Shown here: positions 14,978-42,832 of the stretch, piece after piece
Layout of the letters: each line of letters starts with the position of its first letter
Numbering within the stretch: the stretch's first letter is position 1
Translations under genes and position numbers: made by a program
The notes under the pieces: generated by a model
Databases searched by the model: none
What the model saw: only the letters and a program-made list of their open reading frames with translations
Told to the model about the DNA's origin: nothing
Virus record (IMG/VR): IMGVR_UViG_3300032291_003679
Span: 64,001 to 128,000 of that record
DNA: 64,000 nt
Reading direction: 5' to 3' (one strand)
Source of the DNA: a virus

Positions 14978-16342
14978 TCAGGAAGGTGCGCTGTCGAAGT
15001 CCAGCTTCACGAATGCCTCTGGGCGCTTCACGGCGAGAGCAAGGCGCTGCTCGGCGAGAATCACGATGGCATTACGGATGAAGAAGTCCGAGTGCTGTTC
15101 GCTGATACGGATGCTTGCCTGCTCGCGGTCGTACAACTGAGCGCCGGTACCGAAAGCACCAACAAGAGCTGTACCCTCTGTCATGGCAGGAGTGTCAACG
15201 ATTGGCATTCTCCAAACACGTGGCTCGCCACCCATTGCAACCGAAACTGCGATGAGGTATTGACCCTGCTCGTCCTTGGTGAGCTCGATGTCTTCCCAGT
15301 CATTCGGGTGTAGAACTACACCTGATGGCTCGTAGTAAGCAAGGAATGACAACGTTGCTGCACGACGGATTGCGTCAGCCTTGGTGTCTGCGACAGGTGC
15401 TGAAACACCGTCTGACCATGCGTACTCCTGAATGTTCGGTGTCTGAAGAACGCCGAGCAAGTTTTCGCCAACGCCATTTCCGTTAAGGATTTGGTTATCT
15501 TCGAGAAGACGAAGACCGTACATGAGTTCGTTGTCGATGATTGCACGCAACTGTGGCTCATCTGACAAAACGTTGCGGTGAGCTGCTTCCCAGTGAGCGA
15601 GTGTGCGCACTGGAGCCTGCTCGCCAACGAAGGCAAATGAAGACTGTGGCTTGATACCGAATGCTGTGTTGCCGGAGTTACGCTCTGCAACTGACGATGC
15701 ACTGTTTGTGCCATGGCCAGCCTGCAGGGTTGTGAAACCGAGCTGACGGAAGTATTCAATAACTGCAGCGTTTGTTGTGCGTGTTGGGAACAGGTCACGA
15801 ACGCGCTTTGTACGCATTGGAGGTGTCACCATTGGGTCACGCTGAACGTTGCCAAATGAACCAAGACGGCTGTCTGTAACAGCGGTTGTTGGCAATGCTG
15901 AGTACACATCCTTGACATTGAAGCCATTGTGTGAAGTCAACGAAGCAGCAACCTGCCAAGGAGCAGCCATGTTTGCGCCATTGCGGCCACCGTTGAGTGC
16001 CTTGAACTCTGCTGACTCAAGGAACATCTGACCAATGCTCTTGATTTCACGTGATGTAAGTTGGTTCATGTCTGCAGATGCAGCTGCGTATGCGGCAGCA
16101 GCAGATTCGCCTGCAGGCTGTGAACCCCAGCCATCAACTTGGTTCATGGTCTCAAGGTCGCCGAGAAGGCCCTTGATTTCCTTGATGTCGCGCATGTTCT
16201 TATCGAATGCGCTCTTTTGCTCTGGAGTAACGACTACTGTGCCGTTCTCAACTTTGAATGAATCAGCGATGGTCTTATTGTCTGCCATCTTCTGACGTAG
16301 AGCTCCTTGGAGCTCATCTATACGGGCTTTGTCTTCCGACAT
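14978..16342 (-). CDS. Major capsid protein, HK97 fold
   Basis: Coiled-coil delta-like N-terminus; VRDLFP; VRTLAHW...SDEPQLRAIIDNELMYGL...EDNQILNGNG; F.RN...ILAEQRLALAVKRPEAF; SD GAGGAG. Confidence 0.95.
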   Translation of the reverse strand: MSEDKARIDELQGALRQKMADNKTIADSFKVENGTVVVTPEQKSAFDKNMRDIKEIKGLLGDLETMNQVDGWGSQPAGESAAAAYAAASADMNQLTSREIKSIGQMFLESAEFKALNGGRNGANMAAPWQVAASLTSHNGFNVKDVYSALPTTAVTDSRLGSFGNVQRDPMVTPPMRTKRVRDLFPTRTTNAAVIEYFRQLGFTTLQAGHGTNSASSVAERNSGNTAFGIKPQSSFAFVGEQAPVRTLAHWEAAHRNVLSDEPQLRAIIDNELMYGLRLLEDNQILNGNGVGENLLGVLQTPNIQEYAWSDGVSAPVADTKADAIRRAATLSFLAYYEPSGVVLHPNDWEDIELTKDEQGQYLIAVSVAMGGEPRVWRMPIVDTPAMTEGTALVGAFGTGAQLYDREQASIRISEQHSDFFIRNAIVILAEQRLALAVKRPEAFVKLDFDSAPS

Positions 16343-29876: not shown

Positions 29877-32800
29877 TTATTTATCTGGATTCTTTGAATT
29901 TTTCTTGTCCACCCAAAGGCTATTGCCGGATTCGACTCTCTCTCTTGCTGTTCTTAACTGCTCGTCGCTAAATATGTCATCAATTGTGTATCTTGTTCCA
30001 AACATCTCATTAAATCTGTTAACCATTGACTGCAGTTCACTACCCGAGAATCGTGGCTCGTTACCCTTACTTGGGGTCCACACCGAACCCCTGTTCTGCG
30101 TGGCCGCTTCTAGGGTGTACGCCAGGTCGGTAGCTTCGATTATTTTGTTGCGATTTTCTCTGGTATTAAGTTTTGGAAAACTCTTGTCGATAAATTCGTA
30201 AAGAGCCTCGTAGACGGCGTATTTTGGCCTCTTCATCTCCGTGTCGAACCTCTCGCCAGTATCAGATTCTTTCCATACCGATTTTGCGTCTGGAAGAACT
30301 CCATTGCGAATCATTTGAGCAATTGTTGCAGTAGGAATTCCTTTTCTTCTCCACGCATCATTGATTCCGATGGAATCCGTTCCAAAGGCTGATGAAAGTC
30401 GCTCCTGTAGACCCTTCTTCCATTCTTTTCTATCAATTCCAAGATAATCAAGAAGCGAATCAAGGTCGAAGTCTTCTATCGCGGTCTTGTCATCTCTGAT
30501 TATTTCCCCAGAATCATCTATAGAGCCTTCTTCTGGCAGAAGCATGTCAAAAGATTCACCATAAAGGTCTATCTCTGCCTCAGAATCTCCTCTTGTTGCA
30601 CTGTCTGGATAAAAACGGCCCGAGGCTCTAAATTTAGATGTTTCACTTACTTCTCCAAGTTGAACATATTCCTCAGGGGTCATTGATTGATTTTCTTCAA
30701 CATCAAACCAATATGGGAACGCATCTTTGCCAAACGTTTCAATAATGAATCTGTCACGCATATTTGCGCGGCCAGCATTTTCAGATGCCAAATCAATTTG
30801 CGAAATGTCTTCTATGATGTCGCCCTCTGGGGACTGCACTACTTTTTTGGCTTCATTTGCAGAAACTGGAGCAAAGTATCTCCACGCTGAAAGCTCTTTC
30901 TGCTTACCGAGTTCAGCAATCAAGAGGCGCACAGCGTCGTGGTTGATTCCAGCATCTGGTTCTCTCATCTTTGCTGCGTTAGCAGGGCTCAACCCAAGCA
31001 TCTTAGAGATTTCATCCCTTGTTGCTGGTCGTGACTGTGTCCACCTGATTGTCGAACCGTCTTCGGTATTAAAATTTTCTCTTGAAGTAAATTCTGTTGG
31101 GATTCTTATCGTGTCAGCAAGCTTGTCAATAGAGAGCATCCACGTTTCGGCCGACGGATTCTCGTTTTTGTTGTTGTCACTAATTTTGCCAATACGCACA
31201 CGTTCTTGACGTGCTTTCATCGCTTTGCCAACGTTCTGCATTGCGCCGCGAGTGCGTGATTGACGCACCGGCACTGAAAGCGAGTCGTCATCTATGTCAA
31301 TCGCTATGCCGCGCTTACGTACGCCGTCCCATGCCTGCATGGCGAACTGAAGTGCTTGTCTGTTTTTGCTGGAGTTTGGGTCTCCGTTTATTCTCAATCC
31401 GGCGAGCTGTTGTGCGCTTAGGCTACCTCCGTAGATATTGCTTCCAGAAATTTTTCTGCTTCTACGTGTCAGGCGTCTGCTTCCATCGGTGGTTGCTCCA
31501 CTAGACAGTGTCATTCCTAGAACGTCGTCGATGTCACCTTCGTCAACTACTTCATCATCGTCGTCACCTTCTGGAAGTACGAAATCGTCTTCTCCAGGTT
31601 TTCCATCTTCACCGAATTCGTAATCTTCTTCATCAATTTCAGTAATGATGCCTTCAACTTCTTCAGAATCACCATCATCATCAACTGGTACAGGAACCAC
31701 AATAACTTCGTCGTCTTTTTCATCAGTAGGACGAGCTGGGAATCCATTTTCCAGTTCTGAAAGCGACATGGCATTAATTGCCTTGTACCAATCTGGAAGA
31801 GGAATCCCGTCCTTATCACCGAAGGCTCCTCTATCAAGCTCTGGTGGGATATGCCCATCTACAACAGCTTGCTTCATTGCATCACGTATTGCTTTTGTTC
31901 GCTCGTCATGCAAGTAATAAAAGAAACCAGCATTGCCTGGGTCTAACATTTCTTTTGCGCGGGAGAATGCAACATGGACTAGGTTTCCCTCTTCCATGAA
32001 GCCAATACCAGCTTCGCCTTGCGCCAAGTTGCTTGGAAGATTCTGGGACGGGTCTCCCATGTCTTCTGCTACTGCGACGAATCGAGACTCACGACCCTTA
32101 GAGAGCTGCATTGTTGTGATTTCAACATCTCCGCCCCCAGTCTTGGCCGCATCGCGCACTGCTTGAGCAATTTGTGCAAGTATCTCAGTGCTTTCTTCTA
32201 GGGTTTCACCTTTAATAACAAAACCGTCATAATGGCGACGCCCAGCCTGTCCTTCAATTCTAAAGCCACGCTCAGCTTCCTGCATTACTTCAATTTTGTC
32301 CTGAAGTCCAAGCTGAATGATTGCTTTTTCAAGGTCCCTGCGGTATCTGCCGTTGTTTGAGCCGCGACCTCCTGGTGGAGTATTTACCTTTTGACTTCCG
32401 TCTGGCCTGTCTATTGGTCGACCGGTGTCCACGCCGTCGCCGGTTATTATTATTCGACCAGTTGCTTTTCCTGGGGATTTGTCACTACCCCCTTCAATTT
32501 CAAGAGCAGCATAAACAGCTTGCTTAAACGTGTCGTCAACGTTGGGAATAATGAAAAGCTTTTCTCTCTGTGTTGATTTAGCTTTCCATGCGGACTTTTG
32601 TCTTCCGGCTATTTCTCTTATTTGGTCAACACCAACATTCCAGTTATCGAGTTCCATCGTCTTGCGTTCTGGAATTAAAACTGCTGGGATTATGTCAATT
32701 TTTTCCTTGCCCTTGGCTTTGCCTTTTTCGTGAACCCCTTTAACGACGGTTCCCTGAAGGAGTTCTAGCATTCCCTTTGTGCCAAGAGCTTTGCCTGTTG

Positions 32801-35800
32801 GGTCATTCTTGGGTGGCTTCATTATCAAGTTATAAGCAGAACGTGCTTGCTGATATCTTGCTTGACTAAGAGCCTTTTGTAGCGCGCCAGTTGTCCAGAC
32901 GTTGCCTAGCCACCCAGATGCCTGTGGTTTACCGAATCGTGCAACATAATCTCGCTGCTGTTGTGGTGTTCGGTTAATAAAATCAAGATGCTTCGTAAAG
33001 GTAACTAGCTGCTCCCACTTGGATGCTGGAATAATTACTTCCGGCAACTTTGGCATGCCGCGTTCGTCTTTCTTAACAGCCCTGCTGTTAATGACGATAT
33101 TAATAAACTTAAGAGCTTCGTTGATTATTTCGGCATTTGTTCTACACAAAATCATCGTCGGCAGATTTCCCTTGTCGGCCTCTTCGTATCTGTCGACTAT
33201 TCTTCCTTCCTTTGGCGCGTAAAGTTTATCTCTTAATTCCTTAAGGGCTTTATCTTGCTCTCTTCTGCTTAGGGATGAAATATTTAGCTTCTCCGTGGGG
33301 GAAGAATATTTTTTCTCAATTTTAGCAATCAGGAGCTCTCGGGTTGCATCATCAAGTTCTTCAACAGGGAAATTTCCGCGTCTGTCTTCTTTTGGTAACA
33401 ATGGGTCAAACTGTCTATTAATGACCGTTTGTGCCTGACCCTTAACATGCTTCCATGCAACTGGTTGTGGAACCCCTTGCTTCGTTAGATGCAGGTTCTG
33501 TCCACCCAAAACAAGGTTTGTCGCATGACCGATAACTCCGCCGTATCTAAATGACTCAGTAATGCTCTGCGCATACTCCGGCTGTAGTGACTCAAGAATA
33601 TTTTTTGAATCACGGAATGCGTAAACTGCTTGCCTGTCGTCGCCAACAATTATAATTGGAAGTTTATCCCTATTTCTATCAAGGACAGTTTCCAGAACTT
33701 CGTTAGTATCTTGCGATTCGTCAACCATAAAGGCACCGAGAGGATTCTCTGGTGTCGCTACTTTTTTGCGTAAAGTTGCTCTGGACGTTTTCCCGGCCTT
33801 GTCCGAAATCGTCGTAACAATCCACTCTTCTCCATCGGCAACATACGTATCGCCTTCACTAAGAGATGACGGAATGGCGACTTTTGCTCTTGTCTGATTG
33901 CTTGAATGGGTAATTAAGCCTGGGTCTGTTCTTAGGTCTGGGTCCGTCAGCATCCAAAGTTTTGCTATTAGTTCCATTGATGGCATAACGTTAGAGTCAC
34001 CATCTGAAATTTGGTCAACTATCGACTGGACCGAATCAATCCATAGCTTTGGAATTGCGCTTTCCGGCAAAATGCTATCTACTCCGCCGGGCTTTTTCCC
34101 ATGGCCGCGCGGCGTATCTAAGTCTTCTATGGCCTTTTTGGGCTGCATAAAATGTTGGGCAGTAACTTTTTCTTCTTTCGAAAGCCCCCATCTTCTGAGG
34201 GCGTTGGCAAGAAGGTCACCCATTTCAGAAAACTCTACGAACTCACCGTTTGGAAGTTCGAATCCATCAACTTCTACTTCAACTTTTGTTTTTTTGCCTT
34301 TTTCATTAAGGACTGGCTTGCCTGTCGTGTCTACGACAGTTACCATCTTTTTTTTCTTTTTTTGGTTTGGCCACTTGTTTATTTCAAGATGTTTTACAAA
34401 ATCTTCACCCGACTCAAGCACTACCCATCCCAATGCCTCTAGGCCTGGGTCTTCGCCTACAAATGTTTCTATTGTTCCATCAAAAGTTTCCCTGACAAAG
34501 TTTTTACCAATCATCTTTTCGACGTCTGGTGTTTCTTCTTCGCTTTTCCACTTCGGATTACGTCGCATGGACTTTTTGCTATCGCGGGATTTGTTTAGCA
34601 TTACCAGCTTCCGGCGCATACCTTTTCCATACCTGGCGTCACCTTGGCCAAGGCGTAGCGACCACTGCCACAATTTGTCCGTTGTTGCAATACCAGTGTT
34701 TTTGGGGAATTCAACTTCAGCTTCTAATTGGTTTTTAGTGTTAAACACCGTGTAGAAAATGTTGCCAGTTTTATTAGCTTTTGCTAAGTCTGCTACCGTT
34801 TCTTCAATCTTGTCTGCTGGTATTTTGCTGAAATCAACACCGTAAGTATCTGACAGATACGCTAATTGTTCAGCCCTGCGGACATCGCCTTCTGGCCAGA
34901 GTTCAAACTCTCTCTGAAGGGCCCACGCAATGCTCTTTAGTGTTGTTGTTTTGCCCGTTCCTGCACCAGCAAGAACGCTGAAAACTGCTGGATTTCTTTT
35001 ATGTATAAGCGACATTGCTACAGCTATGATGTCACGCTGTTCGTTAGTTGGTTCGTCCTTAAGGGCGAACGCAAGCCCAAGAGAGACTTTCTCGTCTATC
35101 CGTTCAATGTCTGCGACACCTTTTTGTTTGCCCTTTGGTGTTCCACTAATCGGGCCATCTTGTTTGCCGCTAGCTAACGCACCAGACGGAGTTATAACAA
35201 CGCCGTCCTTGTTTTTGGCTGGGAGCCCTTCGAGTGACCGAGCGAGTTCTCTTTCGGAAGGGCTTGATGGAACAAAATCGTCAAAAGCTTCGGAGTCAAG
35301 AAGGTCTTCTAGCGGTCCTACTATTGTCGTTGTCGGTTTGATTGGTTCAATGTCTTCGTATCCTGCAAGCATTGGCACTTCATACCATGAGTCCTCTTTG
35401 CCCTTGCGCTCATCGTCAGGGATGCCGGCAAGACGACGCATTGTTGCCGAACGGTTAAGCAAGTAGTCGTTTGCTTGCTGAGCCTGAACGATTGCTCTAT
35501 GAATTGCGAGAGGGTCTGAACGTAGCTTCTTTAGCCAGCTATTTAGGTACAAAAGATGGTCTTCGCGTACTGTTGGCTCCAGACCCATTGACCCCATTGC
35601 GAATGCTGAACCTATTTCTGCAATCAATTCTTCGAATGCGTACTGGTCATCGCCGAATTCACGGCCCAGAGTTCTGTTTAGTCTTGTTGGGTGAGATGTC
35701 CAGTGAATTGTCTCATGCATTGCCGTCCCATAGAATGCGAGGGCATTCTCAAACTGTTCAAATGCTGGCATGTGAATCTTGTCAGTGGATGGACGATAAA

Positions 35801-38800
35801 AGGCTTGCTGGCCTTTTGATTCGACAAATGCTGGACCTATTTCTTGGATTACGTTTTCAATATCCTGCAACCGCTGCTCTTGGTTGATGTCAGTATCTTC
35901 AACTTCGTAATACTTGTTAGGAAGATTAGAAACATCATCAACGTTGTATACGGTTTGAACAACGTAATAGCGACCCATCTGGATTGCTTGTCCATCAGCG
36001 TTTATTACAGTTCTGCCATCACGTGGCACAAGAATAGAAACGCCGCGAGCACTAGCTCCAGGCTTTAATTTTCCGCCTAGTTTTTCCCATTGCGTTCTGC
36101 CTGCCCATCTGTTTGTTTTGTAGCCGCGACTTTGCGCAGTAAGCAAAAGGGCTAGCTGATTCATGCCCTGGTAAACACGATTTTTAGTTGGGTTACGCGC
36201 AAAGATTTCCGGGTTGCGCCACGGCATCTTCCATTGTTTTGTTTTGTCAGGGTTATCAATTAAGTCTTGCAGGACTTCGATAATCTCCTCGGCCATTCTC
36301 TTGTACATTTCCGCAAGGATTGGAGAGTCTTCTGGTATTTCTGCTTTATCTGGAAGTTTTCCGGATGAAAGTGCAGCACTAATTGGGCCGTCAAATTTTC
36401 TTATCTCGTTGTTGGTTCTCTTGTTTTTTGACTTATTTAGATATTTTGCGTAACCGCTAGAAAGCTTTTGCTCAGGGTCGTCTGGTATTGCTACGAACTC
36501 TGGCTTTCGGCCGCGGGCAAGTTCGAGGTTCTCTCTATCCTGGTCTTGCTGCATGATGGACGTGACAAGGTCCCTATCAGGAGGGATGCGAACGAACCCT
36601 GGCTTTCGGCCGCGGGCAAGCGGAGTGCTTCTGTCGATGACTTCTGGCTTCTCGTCTGGTATCTCTACAAATTCTGGCTTTCGGCCTTGGGAAAGACGCG
36701 TATTTCTATCGAGAACCTGTGGTTGCTTCGGCTTTTTCTTAGGCTTATCTGCCTCCGCTATTTCGTCTTCAGCCATCTTCTCGACACGATTCATATACTT
36801 GTCAAGGTCAGCAATAGCCTTCTTTAGCTTCTTTATCTGGTCAGCGTCAGTAGCGCCGTCCAGCACTCCCTGTAGTTCGTCTCTTTGAGATTCTGCGGCA
36901 CCGTATTTTTCGGCTGAATCAACATCTGGGTCGTCTATTCGCGGAAGGTCTAGCGGGATTTTCCCTGAAGATAGACGCTCGGTCCGAGCAATAGTTTCTG
37001 ATTCTGGCTTAGAAAGCTGACGGGGTGACGGCTTTGGGTTACGAATTGAGCCAGGACCATCTGGAGTTGGGTCCGGAGTAGCAAGTGGGACGCCACGAAG
37101 GAATAGACCTTCACCGACGACTCCGTTGAGGTTTGCGTCACGAGCTGTGAATGGGTCAAAGTCTTCTGCCCCGATTGAGGTAAAGAACCTTCCACGTGAA
37201 CGACCGCCTCCAATGTTAGGACGGTCGATTAGGCGACTGCCGATAGCGCGTCCGAGGCGGTAACCAGCCGCCTTCCACTCTATGTCATTCTCACCTAGAG
37301 ATTTTTTTTTTAGATTATCAACAGCCGTATCGATGGCTTCAATCAGCTCAAAGCTGACACCAGAGGTGATGACGATGCCGTTGACATCCACAAAGGAGTC
37401 GACATTGTGATAGTCAAAGATTGGGTCTAGAGCTTGTTTTACTTGAAAGGCAAACTGAGGCACCACTGGAAGCAAGTATGGCTTCTGGTCGAAATTGTCA
37501 TCTTTTGTTGAGCCAAACTCGCTGAGAAGCTTAAACTTACGACGCTTCTTGCGGCGTCTCCCAACAACTCCACGGAGTGCTGCAACTGCAAGTTCTCCTG
37601 GATACTTTACTTCCAGGTCAGCAATGTAGTCCTCTTCGTTGAATTCTTCGTCAAGTTCATAAGTCTTCTTAGATGCTGTGTCGCCGGTGACTACTCCCTT
37701 GGGAATTACGGCAAATCTGCACTTGCCTTCTGGCTCGACATCCATGGCGATTATCTTGCAAGAATTTCCACCTTGGTAGAAGACGCAGTTTGCGCACTTA
37801 ACGCCAATTGCAGCAACTGGGTTTTCAGCTGCAGGCTTATAGCCAGCCCAAACGCCGTCAGAATCCTCGTTGAAACGACCGTGGCGCTTAACAATCTTAA
37901 GAAGAGCATCTCTTAAGTCTGTTTCTTCTTGGTCGAGATTGTTTTTGTCAAACTCTGGCTGATTTCTTTCATCATCCATGTCTTCGTATTGGACGGGGGG
38001 CAGAGGAACCATACGGTTGCCGTTTTCTCCAGGCTTAATAGCAATTGGCATCGCCGGCATTTGTGATGGGCGAATCACTCTTTGTGGCTCATTTGCAGGG
38101 ACACCAGGTGCCAGCATTGGCATATTCTGCATTGGCGCAACTGGCTTGCGTGCTGGCATCACCACAATCTGCTGTGGTGGACCAAACATGTAGCGTCCGC
38201 GGTTCCCACTAAATCCGCACTTGTAGCGACCGACTTCACCATTGTCCATTCTGCGGGCAAATGTAATTTCGTCGTCGTTTACGTCCATCAGTGAAACTTT
38301 TGCACCAAGGATTGTAGCTAGTTGCTTTTCTATTTCAGCCTTGTCGATGGCGTCTTCGTCGTCTTCCATCATCGCCATCATGACGCCACTGGCGTTGTCG
38401 TCAGACTTAACTGAAATTGTTCCAGTAAGTTGATTTGCTCCATGTAAAACGGGCGAGACCTCGTAAAGTTCAAGTTCGTAAATAACGTTTGCTTGAGACT
38501 TTTGGTCAAACTGGGCCCGAAGGGTCTTGTATCCGATTGACCATTCCTGCTCTTCTCCAAAGAAAGCAACCATGGCAAAAGCTTCCCGACCTTTTTCTGA
38601 ATTAAGGTTGAATTGCACACGGGCGAACAGGCCACCAATGCCAGCCATTTTCATCTTAAGTGGCAAGCGATTGTCCGTATTTGGAACTTCGTAAATCTCT
38701 AGAACTTTACCGATTGGGTCATTCCAGCTATGTCCCCAGACAACTCGTGGCTTACGGCGTTGGAGGCTCTTGGCGAATGCTCCACTTGCAACAATGTCAC

Positions 38801-38939
38801 CAACGGAGTCTTTGTTACCAATACCAGCAACGAAACACTCAACTATGCCCTGAGCCTCATCAAGGTTGATGTTTCCGCCCTTCGAAGAGAGCGAGTTACC
38901 AAGCGAAGTTGACTTGTATTCGAATAGTTCAGATGGCAT
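29877..38939 (-). CDS. 3020-aa fusion: HK97-type prohead protease, scaffold/HiPIP-like region, leader, ArdC-like (ssDNA-binding + metallopeptidase), UvrD/SF1 helicase, unknown C-terminal module
   Basis: Protease GNKDSVGD...VVWGH..NDPIGK...EWSIGY...LYEVSPVLHGAN; ArdC WKMPW...YQGMNQ...HETIHWTSH..RLNR...YAFEELIAEIGS; helicase AGAGTGKTT, DESQD, VGDDRQAVYAFR, SFRYG, LCRTN, SKGRE, VAFSRAK. Confidence 0.9.
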   Translation of the reverse strand: MPSELFEYKSTSLGNSLSSKGGNINLDEAQGIVECFVAGIGNKDSVGDIVASGAFAKSLQRRKPRVVWGHSWNDPIGKVLEIYEVPNTDNRLPLKMKMAGIGGLFARVQFNLNSEKGREAFAMVAFFGEEQEWSIGYKTLRAQFDQKSQANVIYELELYEVSPVLHGANQLTGTISVKSDDNASGVMMAMMEDDEDAIDKAEIEKQLATILGAKVSLMDVNDDEITFARRMDNGEVGRYKCGFSGNRGRYMFGPPQQIVVMPARKPVAPMQNMPMLAPGVPANEPQRVIRPSQMPAMPIAIKPGENGNRMVPLPPVQYEDMDDERNQPEFDKNNLDQEETDLRDALLKIVKRHGRFNEDSDGVWAGYKPAAENPVAAIGVKCANCVFYQGGNSCKIIAMDVEPEGKCRFAVIPKGVVTGDTASKKTYELDEEFNEEDYIADLEVKYPGELAVAALRGVVGRRRKKRRKFKLLSEFGSTKDDNFDQKPYLLPVVPQFAFQVKQALDPIFDYHNVDSFVDVNGIVITSGVSFELIEAIDTAVDNLKKKSLGENDIEWKAAGYRLGRAIGSRLIDRPNIGGGRSRGRFFTSIGAEDFDPFTARDANLNGVVGEGLFLRGVPLATPDPTPDGPGSIRNPKPSPRQLSKPESETIARTERLSSGKIPLDLPRIDDPDVDSAEKYGAAESQRDELQGVLDGATDADQIKKLKKAIADLDKYMNRVEKMAEDEIAEADKPKKKPKQPQVLDRNTRLSQGRKPEFVEIPDEKPEVIDRSTPLARGRKPGFVRIPPDRDLVTSIMQQDQDRENLELARGRKPEFVAIPDDPEQKLSSGYAKYLNKSKNKRTNNEIRKFDGPISAALSSGKLPDKAEIPEDSPILAEMYKRMAEEIIEVLQDLIDNPDKTKQWKMPWRNPEIFARNPTKNRVYQGMNQLALLLTAQSRGYKTNRWAGRTQWEKLGGKLKPGASARGVSILVPRDGRTVINADGQAIQMGRYYVVQTVYNVDDVSNLPNKYYEVEDTDINQEQRLQDIENVIQEIGPAFVESKGQQAFYRPSTDKIHMPAFEQFENALAFYGTAMHETIHWTSHPTRLNRTLGREFGDDQYAFEELIAEIGSAFAMGSMGLEPTVREDHLLYLNSWLKKLRSDPLAIHRAIVQAQQANDYLLNRSATMRRLAGIPDDERKGKEDSWYEVPMLAGYEDIEPIKPTTTIVGPLEDLLDSEAFDDFVPSSPSERELARSLEGLPAKNKDGVVITPSGALASGKQDGPISGTPKGKQKGVADIERIDEKVSLGLAFALKDEPTNEQRDIIAVAMSLIHKRNPAVFSVLAGAGTGKTTTLKSIAWALQREFELWPEGDVRRAEQLAYLSDTYGVDFSKIPADKIEETVADLAKANKTGNIFYTVFNTKNQLEAEVEFPKNTGIATTDKLWQWSLRLGQGDARYGKGMRRKLVMLNKSRDSKKSMRRNPKWKSEEETPDVEKMIGKNFVRETFDGTIETFVGEDPGLEALGWVVLESGEDFVKHLEINKWPNQKKKKKMVTVVDTTGKPVLNEKGKKTKVEVEVDGFELPNGEFVEFSEMGDLLANALRRWGLSKEEKVTAQHFMQPKKAIEDLDTPRGHGKKPGGVDSILPESAIPKLWIDSVQSIVDQISDGDSNVMPSMELIAKLWMLTDPDLRTDPGLITHSSNQTRAKVAIPSSLSEGDTYVADGEEWIVTTISDKAGKTSRATLRKKVATPENPLGAFMVDESQDTNEVLETVLDRNRDKLPIIIVGDDRQAVYAFRDSKNILESLQPEYAQSITESFRYGGVIGHATNLVLGGQNLHLTKQGVPQPVAWKHVKGQAQTVINRQFDPLLPKEDRRGNFPVEELDDATRELLIAKIEKKYSSPTEKLNISSLSRREQDKALKELRDKLYAPKEGRIVDRYEEADKGNLPTMILCRTNAEIINEALKFINIVINSRAVKKDERGMPKLPEVIIPASKWEQLVTFTKHLDFINRTPQQQRDYVARFGKPQASGWLGNVWTTGALQKALSQARYQQARSAYNLIMKPPKNDPTGKALGTKGMLELLQGTVVKGVHEKGKAKGKEKIDIIPAVLIPERKTMELDNWNVGVDQIREIAGRQKSAWKAKSTQREKLFIIPNVDDTFKQAVYAALEIEGGSDKSPGKATGRIIITGDGVDTGRPIDRPDGSQKVNTPPGGRGSNNGRYRRDLEKAIIQLGLQDKIEVMQEAERGFRIEGQAGRRHYDGFVIKGETLEESTEILAQIAQAVRDAAKTGGGDVEITTMQLSKGRESRFVAVAEDMGDPSQNLPSNLAQGEAGIGFMEEGNLVHVAFSRAKEMLDPGNAGFFYYLHDERTKAIRDAMKQAVVDGHIPPELDRGAFGDKDGIPLPDWYKAINAMSLSELENGFPARPTDEKDDEVIVVPVPVDDDGDSEEVEGIITEIDEEDYEFGEDGKPGEDDFVLPEGDDDDEVVDEGDIDDVLGMTLSSGATTDGSRRLTRRSRKISGSNIYGGSLSAQQLAGLRINGDPNSSKNRQALQFAMQAWDGVRKRGIAIDIDDDSLSVPVRQSRTRGAMQNVGKAMKARQERVRIGKISDNNKNENPSAETWMLSIDKLADTIRIPTEFTSRENFNTEDGSTIRWTQSRPATRDEISKMLGLSPANAAKMREPDAGINHDAVRLLIAELGKQKELSAWRYFAPVSANEAKKVVQSPEGDIIEDISQIDLASENAGRANMRDRFIIETFGKDAFPYWFDVEENQSMTPEEYVQLGEVSETSKFRASGRFYPDSATRGDSEAEIDLYGESFDMLLPEEGSIDDSGEIIRDDKTAIEDFDLDSLLDYLGIDRKEWKKGLQERLSSAFGTDSIGINDAWRRKGIPTATIAQMIRNGVLPDAKSVWKESDTGERFDTEMKRPKYAVYEALYEFIDKSFPKLNTRENRNKIIEATDLAYTLEAATQNRGSVWTPSKGNEPRFSGSELQSMVNRFNEMFGTRYTIDDIFSDEQLRTARERVESGNSLWVDKKNSKNPDK
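36480..36720 (-). repeat. Three tandem peptide repeats L(SQ/AR)GRKP(E/G)FVxIP inside the 3020-aa protein
   Basis: The 21-nt string TGGCTTTCGGCCGCGGGCAAG occurs at both 36501-36521 and 36600-36620, with a third degenerate copy near 36675-36695. Confidence 0.85.
37302..37311 (-). promoter_or_regulatory. A10 slippery run (candidate programmed frameshift or transcriptional slippage site)
   Basis: CTA AAA AAA AAA TCT CTA GGT GAG; both alternative frames stop within 4 codons. Confidence 0.5.
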
Positions 38940-39070: not shown

Positions 39071-41176
39071 TTAAACAGTCTGCCCAAAACCCCAAGCCGC
39101 CCTGGTTTCCCGCTCCGCGAAAGAGTCTTGTTGATGAGCGAAAAACTCCGTAAACATCTCTACAAGTCCGTCTCGGAAGAAAGAGAATCTCTTTTCCTCG
39201 TCCGCATACTCAAAAGATTTGAGCATTAGTGAATTTATTTCACTGAAGTGTGACTCGTTAATCTTTTTGATTCTTGCAACATGAGCATCAATCATTGCTC
39301 GAACATCTTTTGCGGGCAGTGCCTTTACTCTGAGGCCCTTCTCCGATGCTTCGTTCACTCGTGACTCAAACGAGTCATTGATAATTGAAGAAATAACCGG
39401 CCTGATGTCTTCATCAAATTGCTTGTTCCATGTGTCTATGGACAGAACCGATTCGATGTCAAGAGTTCCATGCATTAGTGCTTTTTTGGACTTTAGTCCG
39501 CTTGCTTTTTCAAGAACTACCCGCTGCTGGCGCTCCATGACTCTTTCTACTCCGCGTGAGAGAATGTTGGTCCAACGCTCAATCGATTGTTCATTTCTAT
39601 CGACTGATTCTTTTTCTGAATCATCAGACTTTGTCTCAATCTCAGATTCTGGGGATGAAGCGACCGTTGTTGGTGCTGGAGGCATTGCTGTCTGCGGTAT
39701 CCCGCCGAAAGCCTCTGGTGGAACAGTTGTTTGCGCAAGCTGTCCTTCTGCTGCTGTCTCGGCAAGAGCACCAGCCATTGTGTTCGTATCGAGCGGCATG
39801 ACTTCTCCGCCTGGAGGAATAGGTGCTGGGGCACCTGGAGGCATTCCTGGCATACCTGGGGGCATTCCTGGCATTCCTGGCATTCCTGGCATTCCTGGCA
39901 TTCCTGGTGCTCCTGGAATCTGTGTTTGTCCCTCTTCCATCTTCTTTTTGGTATTGGCGATAGGAATGAGGTTTGGATTTTGCAGCAGAGAGTCAGCAAG
40001 GTCTGCTTCTACTTCTTTGCGTGAAGAACCCATTCTGTATTCGTTTGCGCTGATAAGACCAGACTGGAACTCTTGGAGAAGGTATTTGTCTCTCTCTTGC
40101 TTATAAAGCATAAGGATTGGCACTTCGGACGTATCAAAATCTAAATAGAATTTTTCATCAAGTTCGTCAAGGCCACGAGCCAATGGCTCTAGGTGAGGAA
40201 GCATTGTCTCCATCCAGAAAACACGAATTTCTTCAGCTGCGTTACTAAATGTTCTTCCTGCAGCATTTCCGATAACTGATTCCGGGACACCGAAGGATGA
40301 AAGAATTTCTTCTTTTGTTATCTGTCGCATCTGAATATATGCAGCATCACGCGGGTTCGCGGAAGTATCAACAAAATCCACCCCATCGTCTGCTGCAATA
40401 ACCGTCGTATGGCCTGCTTTTGCAAGATTTCCACGGAATCTGCTTCTTAGCTCTTCCTTGTCGTCCTCGTCAATTGCGCCCCTAACGACCAAAAGTCCAC
40501 CAGGGCGGCCATCGTTTAGGAGGTAGTTGCGGTTATAAAGTTTGGCTAGGTTTTCAATTTCAATTGCTACGCCAGCTGCCTCTAGGGGTGTTAGAGACAG
40601 GTATGGGTCAAGTGGATGAGGTCTTCTTATCCAGCAAACATCTTCTGGCTTGAGAATTCTTTTTTCTCCATATGGCATCTGCACTTCATAGCCAGATACA
40701 AAAGTTTTAGGGTCGGGGATTGGGGCTGTTGATTGGGGCGGAAGAAGGTTGAGCGCGATGATGCGACCATCTCGCCCAAATATTTTCTCAATAAATGCGC
40801 CGCGAGTTCCAAGAAGCAACTGGGCAGAAAGCCTGTATCTGAATATAAAGGAGTTTTCTCCAACATTTGCTTTATTATTCAGAAGCTCCAGAAGGGTTGA
40901 GCGATTTGCTTCTCTACCTACAACTATTTCGCCCTTATTTGAGTTGTTTTTTCTGAGAATTATTGGAAGTCGCGCTTGGTTGCCAGCGATTGCATCAATA
41001 CACCTGTTAACCCAGGTGATTTTTGACATTCCTTCACGGTAGGCGCGCTCAATATCCCAAGAGTCACGGTATGCCTTCCCAGCAAGAGATGGGTTAATGG
41101 AGATAGGCGCTCCATACCCAACGTCCTTTCTGGACTGGGAATTTATGTTTTTGTTTTGAGGTGCGTTCCAAGCCAT
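39071..41176 (-). CDS. Portal protein (HK97 family) with a Pro/Gly/Met-rich linker and C-terminal extension
   Basis: WVNRCIDAIA, LSPL-like LTPLEAA, NDGRPGGLL, EILSSFGVPESVIG, TFSNAAE, GLISANEYR. Confidence 0.92.
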   Translation of the reverse strand: MAWNAPQNKNINSQSRKDVGYGAPISINPSLAGKAYRDSWDIERAYREGMSKITWVNRCIDAIAGNQARLPIILRKNNSNKGEIVVGREANRSTLLELLNNKANVGENSFIFRYRLSAQLLLGTRGAFIEKIFGRDGRIIALNLLPPQSTAPIPDPKTFVSGYEVQMPYGEKRILKPEDVCWIRRPHPLDPYLSLTPLEAAGVAIEIENLAKLYNRNYLLNDGRPGGLLVVRGAIDEDDKEELRSRFRGNLAKAGHTTVIAADDGVDFVDTSANPRDAAYIQMRQITKEEILSSFGVPESVIGNAAGRTFSNAAEEIRVFWMETMLPHLEPLARGLDELDEKFYLDFDTSEVPILMLYKQERDKYLLQEFQSGLISANEYRMGSSRKEVEADLADSLLQNPNLIPIANTKKKMEEGQTQIPGAPGMPGMPGMPGMPGMPPGMPGMPPGAPAPIPPGGEVMPLDTNTMAGALAETAAEGQLAQTTVPPEAFGGIPQTAMPPAPTTVASSPESEIETKSDDSEKESVDRNEQSIERWTNILSRGVERVMERQQRVVLEKASGLKSKKALMHGTLDIESVLSIDTWNKQFDEDIRPVISSIINDSFESRVNEASEKGLRVKALPAKDVRAMIDAHVARIKKINESHFSEINSLMLKSFEYADEEKRFSFFRDGLVEMFTEFFAHQQDSFAERETRAAWGFGQTV
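39831..39916 (-). repeat. 9-nt tandem repeat (GGCATTCCT)n encoding (PGM)n in the portal
   Basis: Directly visible tandem copies. Confidence 0.9.
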
Positions 41177-41518: not shown

Positions 41519-42832
41519 ATGGCTGGAAAAGCTAACTGGGAAGAAGTCCTTGAATACCTCAGCCCCAAAATGCCTTCATTTTGTCCGGAGGAGCCATCTA
41601 TAAACCAAAAAGTTTTCTTGAGAACCAATTCACTTGAGGGACTATTTGGTGGGGCTGCCGGTGGAGGCAAGTCCAGTGCTCTTTTGATGGCTGCACTGCA
41701 ATACGTAGATGTCCCAGGGTACTCTGCAATCCTTTTCCGTAGGACATTTGCGGACCTTTCGCTCCCTGGAGCTCTGATGGACCGCTTTAAGTCATGGATG
41801 AGCAACTACGACGATGTCCACTGGAACAACAACACATTCGTTGCCACCTTCCCATCCGGTGCGCGTATTTCTTTCGGATACTTAAATAACGTTAATGACT
41901 ATCTCCGCTACAAAGGTTCCGAATTTCAGTTCATAGGAATGGATGAGGTCACGGAAATCCGTGAATCTGACTACAGATACCTGTTCTCCCGTCTCCGCCG
42001 TCCTGCAAGCGGACCAATCGCCCAAGTCCCACTCAGAATGAGGGCTGCGTCAAACCCTGCCCCCAACTGGGTGCGTCAGCGCTTTATCGTGGAAGGCAAG
42101 GAGACTGGAAGGGTGTTTGTCCCATCTACGCTAAAAGACAACCCTGGAATTGACGCTGACTCATACCGACAGGCTCTGTCAGCCCTTGACCCAGTGGAAA
42201 GAAGAAGACTTGAAGAGGGCGACTGGTGGTCAACCACCCTGGGCAGCCTGTTTGAGCGGGAATCTTTCATAATTATTGACGCCGACGAGATACCACTTAT
42301 AACCAACTCAGCGAGAGTTGTCAGGTTCTGGGACCTTGCAGCCACCGAGCCTCACGCTGGCAACCCTGACCCTGACTGGACGGTTGGGACGCTCATGCTG
42401 TTTGACGGGGGGGTTTCCTACATTCTTGATGTTAGGAAGGCGCGCGTAAAAGGAGAAAAAGTAGAGCAATTAATCTCCGAGACCGCCGAAGATGACGGAT
42501 ACGGGGTTTCAATTAGAATGGAACAAGAACCCGGTTCTTCCGGAAAGGCCTTGGTTGACCAGTACGCCAGATACGTCGTTCCTGGGTATGACTTTGGCGC
42601 AATGAGGCCGACCGGAGACAAGGTGACAAGGGCTAGGCCGTTCGCCGCTGCTGCCGCCAACGGAAACGTTCGCCTGGTTCGTGCCCCTTGGCTCACTGAC
42701 TGGCTGGACGAATTTTCTTCATTTCCAGAAGCCGCGAACCACGACGACCAGGTTGACTCCGCTGTTGGAGCTTTTACTTTTTTGACTGGTTTGGGGTTGC
42801 CTCAACGCAAACGTGCTTCTATAATTTTCTAA
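41519..42832 (+). CDS. terL: Terminase large subunit
   Basis: Walker A GGAAGGGKS, Walker B FIGMDE, ASNP, nuclease WDLA...DWTVG and HDDQVDS. Confidence 0.95.
   Translation: MAGKANWEEVLEYLSPKMPSFCPEEPSINQKVFLRTNSLEGLFGGAAGGGKSSALLMAALQYVDVPGYSAILFRRTFADLSLPGALMDRFKSWMSNYDDVHWNNNTFVATFPSGARISFGYLNNVNDYLRYKGSEFQFIGMDEVTEIRESDYRYLFSRLRRPASGPIAQVPLRMRAASNPAPNWVRQRFIVEGKETGRVFVPSTLKDNPGIDADSYRQALSALDPVERRRLEEGDWWSTTLGSLFERESFIIIDADEIPLITNSARVVRFWDLAATEPHAGNPDPDWTVGTLMLFDGGVSYILDVRKARVKGEKVEQLISETAEDDGYGVSIRMEQEPGSSGKALVDQYARYVVPGYDFGAMRPTGDKVTRARPFAAAAANGNVRLVRAPWLTDWLDEFSSFPEAANHDDQVDSAVGAFTFLTGLGLPQRKRASIIF

What the first reader, a model, noticed from the sequence alone, without database searches (positions are those of the whole stretch)
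37285..37315. A10 slippery run at the junction between protease/scaffold and cargo
The minus strand reads CTA AAA AAA AAA TCT CTA GGT GAG (T10 at 37302-37311 on the plus strand), the longest homopolymer I noticed in the window. A -1 shift gives KKKISR-stop (TGA 37291-37293) and a +1 shift stops at the next TAG. Either yields a ~550-aa protease-scaffold protein. The run sits about 8 codons before the shared leader. Inference: ribosomal frameshifting or RNA-polymerase slippage sets the ratio of short protease/scaffold to the 3020-aa cargo-bearing form. This is the reverse of the usual logic, since here slippage truncates.
Basis: partly seen in the sequence, partly recalled or inferred. Interest (0 to 1): 0.7.

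Follow-up and report, generated by a model that had tools for sequence, protein, structure and literature searches.

The report
Conserved slippery A-run splitting protease from cargo
A run of ten A's inside a giant phage head gene has been kept letter for letter across diverged relatives, so it most likely makes the copying machinery slip, giving a short head-protease form beside the full protease-plus-injected-cargo form; this is a known trick in a new place.

Summary
The A10 run is real (37302-37311, minus strand, codons L543-K546 of the 3020-aa ORF 29877..38939). It is the longest homopolymer in the whole 158-kb phage genome. Its length alone is about what the run-length tail predicts.

Comparison with relatives carries the case:
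- In 14 distinct in-frame relatives (50-87% aa identity) the stretch NTA AAA AAA AAA is invariant, except one final AAG. All ten other conserved lysine columns mix AAA and AAG.
- Stops lie 1-5 codons away in both shifted frames in every relative.
- Two further lineages carry an in-frame A10 and A11.
- One sister lineage (A9) and one more distant clade (A7-8 plus stop) are out of frame here. The start-less -1 frame behind their run encodes the homologous cargo leader under purifying selection, so recoding at this junction is a family trait.

Slippage, most likely by RNA polymerase with ribosomal sliding possible, yields 547/549-aa protease forms beside the 337-kDa cargo fusion. No RNA or protein data exist.

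"Slippage truncates" is not new logic: Thermus dnaX and Shigella spa33/mxiA work this way. The scan has noted the same layout in other phage genomes. This is a new member of a known kind.

The parts
37302..37311 (-). A10 run (third base of CTA-543 plus AAA AAA AAA for K544-546): the proposed slippage site
   Evidence: Read directly. Invariant in 13 of 14 distinct in-frame relatives, with one AAG at the last Lys. A10 and A11 in two further lineages.
37291..37293 (-). TGA stop in the -1 frame (used by a -1 ribosomal shift or by mRNA with one extra A); product ends KKK-ISR, 549 aa
   Evidence: A -1-frame stop lies 3-5 codons after the run in all 14 relatives, made by a T-ending codon followed by GAx although the amino acids differ.
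37295..37297 (-). TAG stop in the +1 frame (mRNA with one A fewer); product ends KK-NL, 547 aa
   Evidence: A +1-frame stop lies 1-4 codons after the run in all 14 relatives; in 13 of them it is made by an NTA codon (CTA, TTA or ATA) followed by a purine.
38415..38846 (-). Prohead serine protease domain (Peptidase_S78, residues 32-175), the only one in the genome
   Evidence: Pfam 44.1 bits against a cut-off of 21; PHROG head maturation protease; single hit in the whole genome.
37689..37928 (-). Cys4 (HiPIP-like) module, residues 338-417, part of the short form
   Evidence: 60% identical to part of a 'capsid maturation protease' of Actinomycetia phage DSL-LC01. Function not tested.
37317..37493 (-). 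Conserved C-terminal domain of the short form (residues ~483-541); the run follows 2 residues after it
   Evidence: Homologous in the A9-A11 clade and in the A7-8 frameshift clade. The run lies 2-13 residues after this domain in both.
37212..37280 (-). Cargo leader (residues 554-576), start of the cargo half
   Evidence: Similar to the N-terminus of a separately encoded giant protein. Homologous to the peptide read in the -1 frame directly after the run in out-of-frame relatives.
36963..36974 (-). First LSSG motif (residues 656-659), a candidate prohead-protease cut site that ends the leader
   Evidence: Motif positions. The motif recurs in P0001 and P0002. Cleavage not shown.
29877..37301 (-). 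Cargo half (residues 547-3020, 276 kDa): ArdC-N, zincin MPTase-PolyVal, UvrD-like helicase and others
   Evidence: Pfam; mass.
4847..4915 (-). Second copy of the leader, near the N-terminus of giant ORF 2..4984(-)
   Evidence: tblastn 61% identity over 23 aa, E 0.004; translation.

Best explanation
The 3020-aa gene joins in frame two units that are separate or frameshift-linked in relatives. The first is a ~546-aa prohead protease with its C-terminal extension. The second is a ~2470-aa leader-plus-cargo polyprotein of the 'polyvalent protein' type. The A10 run at the joint is a selected slippage site. Shown: the run, and the stops that flank it in both shifted frames, are kept at the nucleotide level across relatives whose synonymous sites are otherwise near saturation. 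Related lineages are out of frame at the equivalent run yet keep the start-less cargo frame under purifying selection. Inferred: in this phage a share of transcripts gain or lose one A on the A10 template. This is RNA polymerase slippage, favoured because the run has at least nine A's, no RNA structure accompanies it, and stops are kept in both directions. Ribosomes may also slide on AAA AAA AAA. The shifted messages end after 2-3 codons and give a 547- or 549-aa protease-only protein. Unshifted messages give the 337-kDa protease-cargo fusion. That fusion would be carried into the prohead by its protease end and then cut at LSSG-type sites. The ratio of the two forms would set how much cargo each capsid receives.
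For: 1) Nucleotide-level conservation. Fourteen distinct in-frame sequences share 50-87% aa and 55-78% nt identity with the window sequence. Only 10 of 310 third codon positions are invariant, and three of them are consecutive in the run. The three run lysines are AAA in 14/14, 14/14 and 13/14 sequences. All ten other conserved Lys columns mix AAA and AAG. The preceding codon changes amino acid (L, V, I) but stays NTA. The longest invariant nucleotide stretch in the 1200-nt alignment is the run itself. AAA makes up only 49-57% of Lys codons in this phage, and its other KKK and KKKKK stretches are broken by AAG.
2) Stops in both shifted frames lie within 1-5 codons in all 14 sequences. They are made by different codons and amino acids. 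Only 1.6% of positions in this ORF match the window's values.
3) Two more diverged metagenomic lineages carry an in-frame A10 and A11 at the same spot.
4) Out-of-frame relatives. L034/L035/L085 carry A9 (three contigs; L085 is 94.5% identical in DNA to the L035 contig, so at least two strains). There the protease ORF stops 6 codons after the run, and a cargo ORF of more than 1100 aa continues in the -1 frame. A second clade of at least 10 distinct contigs ends the 462-515-aa protease ORF 0-5 codons after an in-frame A_AAA_AAA, and an ORF of about 1000 aa or more (cut by the locus ends) lies in the -1 frame. That ORF has no ATG for about 100 nt or more after the run, and in L071, L074 and L061 no start codon of any kind. 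The peptide read in that frame right after the run aligns with the window's leader and has dN/dS of 0-0.46.
5) The run marks a true module boundary. It follows a C-terminal domain shared by both clades. The leader behind it also heads a separately encoded giant protein. A cultured relative has a stand-alone 454-aa protease next to its capsid gene.
6) Precedent. In Thermus dnaX the long product is in frame and slippage with stops in both frames gives the short product at 1:1. Shigella spa33 and mxiA are truncated by slippage (PMC5009743). The A11 of Citrobacter tssM1 gives mRNAs with 10-15 A's, and the ratio of the two forms matters (PMC4256274).
Against: No RNA, read-level or protein data exist, so slippage, its rate and its direction are all inferred. 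Many related phages (at least 20 contigs) fuse protease and cargo in frame with no run of 8 or more, so a separately made short form is not universally needed. If the unshifted long form is the main product, the cargo load per capsid would be very large, and this is unexplained. E. coli RNA polymerase is reported to slip less on poly(A) than on poly(T) coding runs (PMC6260861 abstract), and the host polymerase here is unknown. The single variant in the in-frame clade (final AAG) and the A9-G of the out-of-frame lineage both form A_AAA_AAG, the classic ribosomal -1 heptamer. A ribosomal mechanism is therefore not excluded.
Confidence: 0.7

Rival explanations
1. Classical -1 programmed ribosomal frameshifting (tRNA-Lys slipping on A_AAA_AAA or A_AAA_AAG), rather than polymerase slippage, makes the short form. 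The outcome is the same but the machine differs.
For: An in-frame X_XXY_YYZ heptamer is present. The only substitution tolerated in the in-frame clade gives A_AAA_AAG, and the out-of-frame A9 lineage has the same heptamer. The A7-8 clade has a heptamer, a 7-nt spacer and a hairpin with four invariant G-C pairs. Ribosomes are known to slide on iterated AAA codons (PMC4363877).
Against: The window shows no stimulatory structure: single fold z = -0.64 and consensus fold energy ~0 across 12 relatives. The +1-frame stop is conserved as tightly as the -1 stop, which a pure -1 shift would not require. Runs of nine or more A's are the hallmark of transcriptional slippage.
Confidence: 0.15
2. DNA-level phase variation. 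The homopolymer is a contingency locus at which replication slippage switches heritable sub-populations between cargo-fused and cargo-less states.
For: Long homopolymers are mutable. In-frame (A10, A11) and out-of-frame (A9) states both exist among relatives.
Against: Run length is uniform within every group of contigs whose 1200-nt junction segments are identical, although the contigs carry different IMG sample numbers: groups of 6, 4, 3, 3, 2, 2, 2 and 2. The A9 state is shared by contigs that differ at 5.5% of bases, and their cargo frame is under purifying selection. A switched-off state would not preserve it.
Confidence: 0.07
3. The run is a translational attenuator only. The poly(A) track stalls ribosomes and lowers synthesis of the cargo half, and the truncated peptides are by-products without function.
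For: Poly(A) tracks attenuate translation (PMC4552401 and PMC4363877). Run-less in-frame fusions work in other lineages.
Against: It does not explain why stops are kept within a few codons in both shifted frames. It also does not explain why related clades encode the protease form as the default product and reach the cargo only by a shift.
Confidence: 0.05
4. Chance, or a decaying relic: three lysines that happen to use AAA, or a leftover of an ancestral frameshift site now fixed in frame.
For: One A/T run of 10 in 158 kb is about what the run-length tail predicts.
Against: The run is invariant across lineages with pS of 0.63-0.84, whereas all other conserved Lys codons vary. A relic would have picked up AAG.
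Confidence: 0.03

Closest known systems
Thermus thermophilus dnaX (tau/gamma) transcriptional slippage at an A9 run
   Same: The long product is encoded in one ORF. A run of at least nine A's sits inside it, stop codons lie close by in both non-zero frames, and slippage gives a truncated second product that shares the N-terminus (PMC5009743).
   Different: That is a host replication gene, not a phage head gene. There the two products are shown by experiment at 1:1; here nothing is measured. Here the truncation removes a 276-kDa cargo, and relatives toggle between in-frame and out-of-frame states at the same joint.
Citrobacter rodentium tssM1 (A11) and Shigella spa13/spa33/mxiA/mxiE transcriptional slippage
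   Same: Homopolymeric A runs in genes of injection machines give two length variants, and their ratio matters. spa33 and mxiA are truncated by slippage.
   Different: In tssM1 the DNA frame is interrupted and slippage restores it. That matches the A9 and A7-8 relatives found here, not the window itself.
Programmed -1 frameshifts in phage structural genes (lambda G/GT tail chaperone)
   Same: A fixed share of an N-terminally identical longer protein is made from a slippery site near the 3' end of a structural gene (lambda G/GT: PMC5009743). The A7-8 clade of relatives has this classical layout.
   Different: Here the extension is a giant multi-enzyme cargo, the carrier is the prohead protease, and in the window the default frame is the long one. 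T7 10A/10B, as I recall it, is a further example of the same kind.
Polyvalent proteins of phages and conjugative elements (Iyer et al. 2017, PMC5512222)
   Same: A giant multidomain protein with ArdC-N, zincin MPTase and helicase modules, encoded in the head module and predicted to be packaged and injected.
   Different: That paper says assemblin-like peptidases lie at the C-termini of polyvalent proteins. Here the S78 protease is N-terminal. The word 'frameshift' does not occur in the paper's text.
Phage T4 internal proteins with capsid targeting sequence
   Same: In T4, as I recall, an N-terminal leader directs cargo into the prohead and is removed by the prohead protease. Here a shared leader followed by an LSSG motif heads two cargo units.
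   Different: Here one cargo unit is covalently fused to the protease itself. Targeting and cleavage are untested.

Membership tests
Programmed transcriptional slippage site (dnaX-Thermus type) | Homopolymeric A or T run of about 9 or more inside the coding sequence | tested here: met
   A10 at 37302-37311. Relatives carry A9, A10 or A11.
Programmed transcriptional slippage site (dnaX-Thermus type) | Run conserved at the nucleotide level among homologues despite synonymous alternatives | tested here: met
   Run lysines are AAA in 14/14, 14/14 and 13/14 sequences. All ten other conserved Lys columns are mixed. The preceding codon is always NTA.
Programmed transcriptional slippage site (dnaX-Thermus type) | Stop codons close by in both shifted frames, so that +1 and -1 nucleotide products are both short | tested here: met
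   Stops 1-5 codons away in all 14 relatives. 1.6% of positions in the ORF match the window's values.
Programmed transcriptional slippage site (dnaX-Thermus type) | mRNA population heterogeneous in run length while the DNA is homogeneous | not testable with these tools
   No reads or transcriptomes are available. DNA consensus length is uniform within every group of contigs with identical junction segments.
Programmed transcriptional slippage site (dnaX-Thermus type) | Two protein products with a common N-terminus detected | not testable with these tools
   Predicted sizes are 60.6/60.9 kDa and 336.6 kDa.
-1 programmed ribosomal frameshift cassette | In-frame X_XXY_YYZ heptamer | tested here: met
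   A_AAA_AAA occurs twice within CTA AAA AAA AAA. A_AAA_AAG occurs in L014-19 and in L034/35/85.
-1 programmed ribosomal frameshift cassette | Stimulatory RNA structure 5-9 nt downstream (or an SD-like element upstream) | tested here: not met
   Window fold z = -0.64. Consensus fold of 12 relatives is ~0 kcal/mol with no covarying pairs. A hairpin 7 nt after the run is found only in the A7-8 clade.
Polyvalent protein (Iyer et al. 2017) | Single polypeptide with several conflict-related domains (ArdC-N, MPTase, helicase and others) | tested here: met
   ArdcN 62 bits, MPTase-PolyVal 137 bits, UvrD-helicase 42 bits, AAA_19 33 bits.
Polyvalent protein (Iyer et al. 2017) | Encoded among virion (portal-terminase) genes | tested here: met
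   Lies between the portal gene (39071..41176) and the major head protein gene (14978..16342), with the large terminase gene adjacent.
Polyvalent protein (Iyer et al. 2017) | Packaged in the capsid and delivered to the host | not testable with these tools
   Inferred only, from the fusion to the prohead protease.
HK97-type prohead protease (Peptidase_S78) | Match to the family profile above the curated cut-off | tested here: met
   44.1 bits against 21; 49.8 bits in the genome search.
HK97-type prohead protease (Peptidase_S78) | Catalytic His/Ser residues present | not tested
   Not checked residue by residue.
Phase-variable contingency locus | Run length polymorphic among near-identical genomes | tested here: not met
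   Contigs with identical 1200-nt junction segments, in groups of 6, 4, 3, 3, 2, 2, 2 and 2, all share one run length per group. This is consensus level only; reads were not available.

The most novel reading that the evidence does not exclude
A homopolymer 'dosing valve' for injected anti-defence cargo. In this group of uncultured phages the joint between the prohead protease (the carrier) and a giant polyvalent cargo is a recoding site. Evolution toggles it between default-long (in-frame A10 or A11, slippage truncates) and default-short (A7-9, slippage or a -1 shift fuses). Each lineage would thereby set how many copies of a 276-kDa enzyme cargo are loaded per capsid, with polymerase or ribosome infidelity as the tuning knob.
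Probability: 0.45. Interest if true: 0.75.

Novelty: new member of a known kind. Interest (0 to 1): 0.6.

Why it matters
If the run works as proposed, one gene supplies both the phage's only head-maturation protease and a protease-tethered 276-kDa package of anti-restriction and DNA-handling enzymes. A ten-base homopolymer would then set the ratio between them. That would give a simple, testable rule for how giant polyvalent proteins get into capsids and how their copy number is controlled, which the 2017 description of these proteins left open. The family also offers a natural series for measuring how run length and frame set the product ratio: A7-8 with a hairpin, A9 out of frame, A10 and A11 in frame, and run-less fusions. 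For genome annotation it means two things. In-frame giant 'protease' genes may hide a second, short product. Relatives annotated as two genes (protease, then a start-less giant ORF) are really one frameshift-linked unit.

Tried and rejected
- Length statistics alone. The run-length tail (48, 12, 2, 1 for lengths 7-10) roughly predicts one run of 10, so length is not evidence.
- DNA search of cultured phages: no match. A protein search hit only the protease domain (42% identity to Gordonia phages) and the Cys4 module (DSL-LC01). Neither phage has the fused layout.
- RNA structure around the window's run: none, either in a single fold or in a 12-sequence consensus. No Rfam family matched.
- Internal promoter. 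TTGAAG-17-GATAAT ends 2 nt before the run, but it scores only 9 of 12 and its hexamers are not conserved in relatives (GAA AAT, GCA AAC, GAT AAC). No in-frame start follows. Rejected.
- Antisense terminator on the T10 strand: none found at the run.
- A second protease gene that would make a short form unnecessary: none in the genome.
- A phage T7-like RNA polymerase: no hit, but the control genomes gave none either, so this is uninformative.
- Literature searches for a frameshift between a prohead protease and a polyvalent or ejection protein found no description.
- The metagenome scan gave only two extra loci, too few to test run-length polymorphism.
Full report
**Setting**

The window is bases 64001-128000 of a 158,021-bp IMG/VR virus record with direct terminal repeats. 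On the minus strand the head module reads as follows:
- portal, 39071..41176;
- a 3020-aa ORF, 29877..38939 (P0001);
- an acidic 523-aa protein;
- a second giant ORF of 2391 aa;
- several small genes;
- the major head protein, 14978..16342.

The large terminase gene lies divergently at 41519..42832.

P0001 starts with the phage's only Peptidase_S78 prohead protease, residues 32-175. It goes on to ArdC-N (877-968), a zincin MPTase-PolyVal domain (1027-1149) and a UvrD-like helicase (about 1723-1779). It is thus a 'polyvalent protein' in the sense of Iyer et al. 2017 (PMC5512222), but it is led by the protease. That paper reports assemblin-like peptidases only at C-termini.

**The observation**

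The minus strand reads GAT AAT CTA AAA AAA AAA TCT CTA GGT GAG, with ten A's at 37311-37302. These are codons L543 and K544-546.
- One extra A, or a -1 shift, gives KKK-ISR-stop (TGA 37291-37293; 549 aa, 60.9 kDa).
- One A fewer, or a +1 shift, gives KK-NL-stop (TAG 37295-37297; 547 aa, 60.6 kDa).
- The full chain is 336.6 kDa.

The run is the longest homopolymer in the whole genome. However, A/T runs of 7, 8, 9 and 10 number 48, 12, 2 and 1, so one run of 10 is roughly what the tail predicts.

**Conservation**

A scan of IMG/VR with the first 700 residues returned 77 related loci.

Thirteen distinct sequences, together with the window, form an in-frame set. They share 50-87% aa and 55-78% nt identity with the window sequence over 1200 nt around the joint. 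At the homologous spot all read NTA AAA AAA AAA, except one lineage (L014-19, L024) whose last lysine is AAG.

The contrast with the rest of the alignment is strong:
- Only 10 of 310 ungapped third codon positions are invariant, and three of them are consecutive in the run.
- Only 8 of 125 columns with an invariant degenerate amino acid have an invariant codon.
- All ten other conserved lysine columns mix AAA and AAG.
- The longest invariant nucleotide stretch is the run itself.

The codon before the run changes amino acid (Leu, Val, Ile) yet always ends in TA. In this phage AAA is only 49-57% of lysine codons, and the other KKK and KKKKK stretches of P0001 are interrupted by AAG.

Two more diverged lineages from general metagenomes (55-60% aa identity) carry an in-frame A10 (L089) and an in-frame A11 (L090, where the next codon is ATC) at the same place.

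**Off-frame stops**

In all 14 sequences the -1 frame stops 3-5 codons after the run and the +1 frame stops 1-4 codons after it. The stops are built from different codons:
- The -1 TGA comes from a T-ending codon (GGT, ACT, AGT, GAT, AAT) followed by GAx.
- The +1 TAG or TAA comes, in 13 of the 14, from CTA, TTA or ATA followed by a purine.

The stops therefore look selected in their own right. Only 1.6% of codon positions in P0001 have stops as close in both frames as the window has here.

**Relatives that need the shift**

Three contigs (L034, L035 and L085; L085 is 94.5% identical in DNA to the L035 contig) have A9 followed by G. In them the protease frame stops 6 codons after the run. The homologous cargo continues in the -1 frame for more than 1100 codons, with no start codon for about 186 nt.

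A second clade (L036-44, 47, 53, 61, 71, 74, 76) ends a 462-515-aa protease ORF with GGT TCA AAA AAA followed by a stop 0-5 codons on. This is an in-frame A_AAA_AAA heptamer. An ORF of about 1000 aa or more, cut off by the locus ends, opens before the run in the -1 frame. It has no ATG for about 100 nt or more after the run, and in L071, L074 and L061 it has no start codon of any kind.

The peptide read in that frame directly after the run aligns with residues 547-600 of the window protein. It evolves with dN/dS of 0-0.46 where that is measurable. It is therefore translated, and that requires a -1 shift or one added A. In this clade a hairpin with four invariant G-C pairs begins 7 nt after the run, which is the classical -1 frameshift layout, although covariation is weak.

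On a tree of the protease region the A9-A11 sequences form one clade (SH-aLRT support 99). The A7-8 sequences form another (support 87), inside a sister clade that otherwise holds in-frame fusions without any run of 8 or more. The recoding site is therefore a recurrent trait of the group, but not a universal one.

**A true module boundary**

The last ~60 residues before the run form a domain conserved in both clades, and the run follows it by 2-13 residues. Eight codons after the run begins a leader (EWKAAGYRLGR...). This leader also stands near the N-terminus of a separately encoded giant protein (window 4847-4915, minus; E 0.004). In both proteins a basic Gly/Arg-rich stretch, an acidic D/G-rich stretch and an LSSG motif follow it. 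The cultured Gordonia phage Hanem has a stand-alone 454-aa protease next to its capsid gene. That size is close to the short form predicted here.

**Mechanism**

No RNA structure accompanies the run in the window (z = -0.64) or in a 12-sequence consensus (about 0 kcal/mol). No Rfam family matches.

Three features fit transcriptional slippage as described for Thermus dnaX: a run of at least nine A's, no stimulator, and stops guarded in both directions. In dnaX the long tau is in frame, stops lie in both non-zero frames, and gamma is made at 1:1. The same holds for Shigella spa33 and mxiA (PMC5009743). In Citrobacter tssM1 an A11 run gives mRNAs with 10-15 A's, and both forms and their ratio are needed (PMC4256274).

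Ribosomal events cannot be excluded. AAA AAA AAA makes ribosomes slide (PMC4363877), and the one tolerated variant creates A_AAA_AAG. E. coli polymerase is reported to slip less on poly(A) than on poly(T) (PMC6260861).

I put about 70% on a selected slippage site that makes a short protease form. Within that I rate polymerase slippage more likely than a purely ribosomal shift.

**What remains inferred**

The following are all untested:
- that the short form is functional rather than a by-product;
- the ratio of the two forms;
- that the fusion is the route by which cargo enters the prohead;
- cleavage at LSSG.

The run-less in-frame fusions show that a separately made short form is not obligatory in every lineage.

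**Rivals**

- DNA-level phase variation is disfavoured. Run length is uniform within every group of contigs whose junction segments are identical. The A9 state persists across 5.5% sequence divergence with its cargo frame under purifying selection.
- A promoter-like TTGAAG-17-GATAAT just 5' of the run is weak and not conserved.
- Chance or a relic is excluded by the codon statistics.

**Novelty**

The mechanism and the 'slippage truncates' logic are known. My literature searches found no description of a recoding site between a prohead protease and a polyvalent cargo, and the word 'frameshift' does not occur in the text of Iyer et al. 2017. Earlier notes of this scan report the same layout in other phage genomes: an A11 and an A10 at protease/cargo junctions, and a 170-kb actinophage-like genome. 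Within the scan this is therefore a recurring find. I did not test those genomes. I class it as a new member of a known kind, of moderate to high interest because it makes cargo loading of giant phage polyproteins directly testable.

Noticed in passing
window 4847-4915 (-) and 37212-37280 (-): A ~23-aa leader (E-x-K-A-A-x-x-R-L-G-R-x-x-G-S-R-x-x-x-R-P-x-I) is shared by the cargo half of P0001 and the N-terminus of a separately encoded giant ORF (2..4984, minus, running off the window). In both, a basic Gly/Arg-rich stretch, an acidic D/G-rich stretch and an LSSG motif follow it. It is a candidate capsid-targeting or docking peptide.
   Followed up: partly
window 36963-36974, 36453-36464, 36360-36371, 31497-31508 (-); also P0002 (21000..28175, -): Recurrent LSSG motifs (and LSQG, LARG, LASG variants) lie between modules of the giant proteins. 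They are probably prohead-protease cut sites.
   Followed up: no
L037:4243-4338, L038, L040, L036, L061, L053 (relatives, not the window): In the A7-8 clade a hairpin with the stem GCCC...GGGC starts 7 nt after the slippery heptamer, which is a textbook -1 frameshift geometry. L071 and L074 seem to use a different, longer-range stem (GCCCTTAG...CTAAGGGC).
   Followed up: partly
L085/L086/L087 position 2315-2323: The A9 out-of-frame lineage has a second A9 run about 125 codons further on, inside the leader just before its LSSG motif. It is not conserved in L029 or L032.
   Followed up: no
window 37314-37342 (-): A sigma-70-like TTGAAG-17-GATAAT ends 2 nt before the A-run, so a transcript from it would start inside the run. 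It matches 9 of 12 positions, and the hexamers are not conserved in relatives.
   Followed up: yes
window 37689-37928 (-): A Cys4 (C-x2-C ... C ... C) module in the protease extension is 60% identical to part of a 'capsid maturation protease' of Actinomycetia phage DSL-LC01. That phage also annotates a 'high potential iron-sulfur protein' nearby.
   Followed up: no
L063 codon ~452 and L049 codon ~487 (relatives): Two of the 'run-less' in-frame fusions carry an in-frame A7 (GGT GGA AAA AAA CGT; GAT GGA AAA AAA TGG) in the region where the junction should lie. These may be weaker versions of the same site.
   Followed up: no
window 29877-38939 (-): The protease is N-terminal in this polyvalent protein. 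Iyer et al. 2017 state that assemblin-like peptidases are always at the C-termini of polyvalent proteins.
   Followed up: partly
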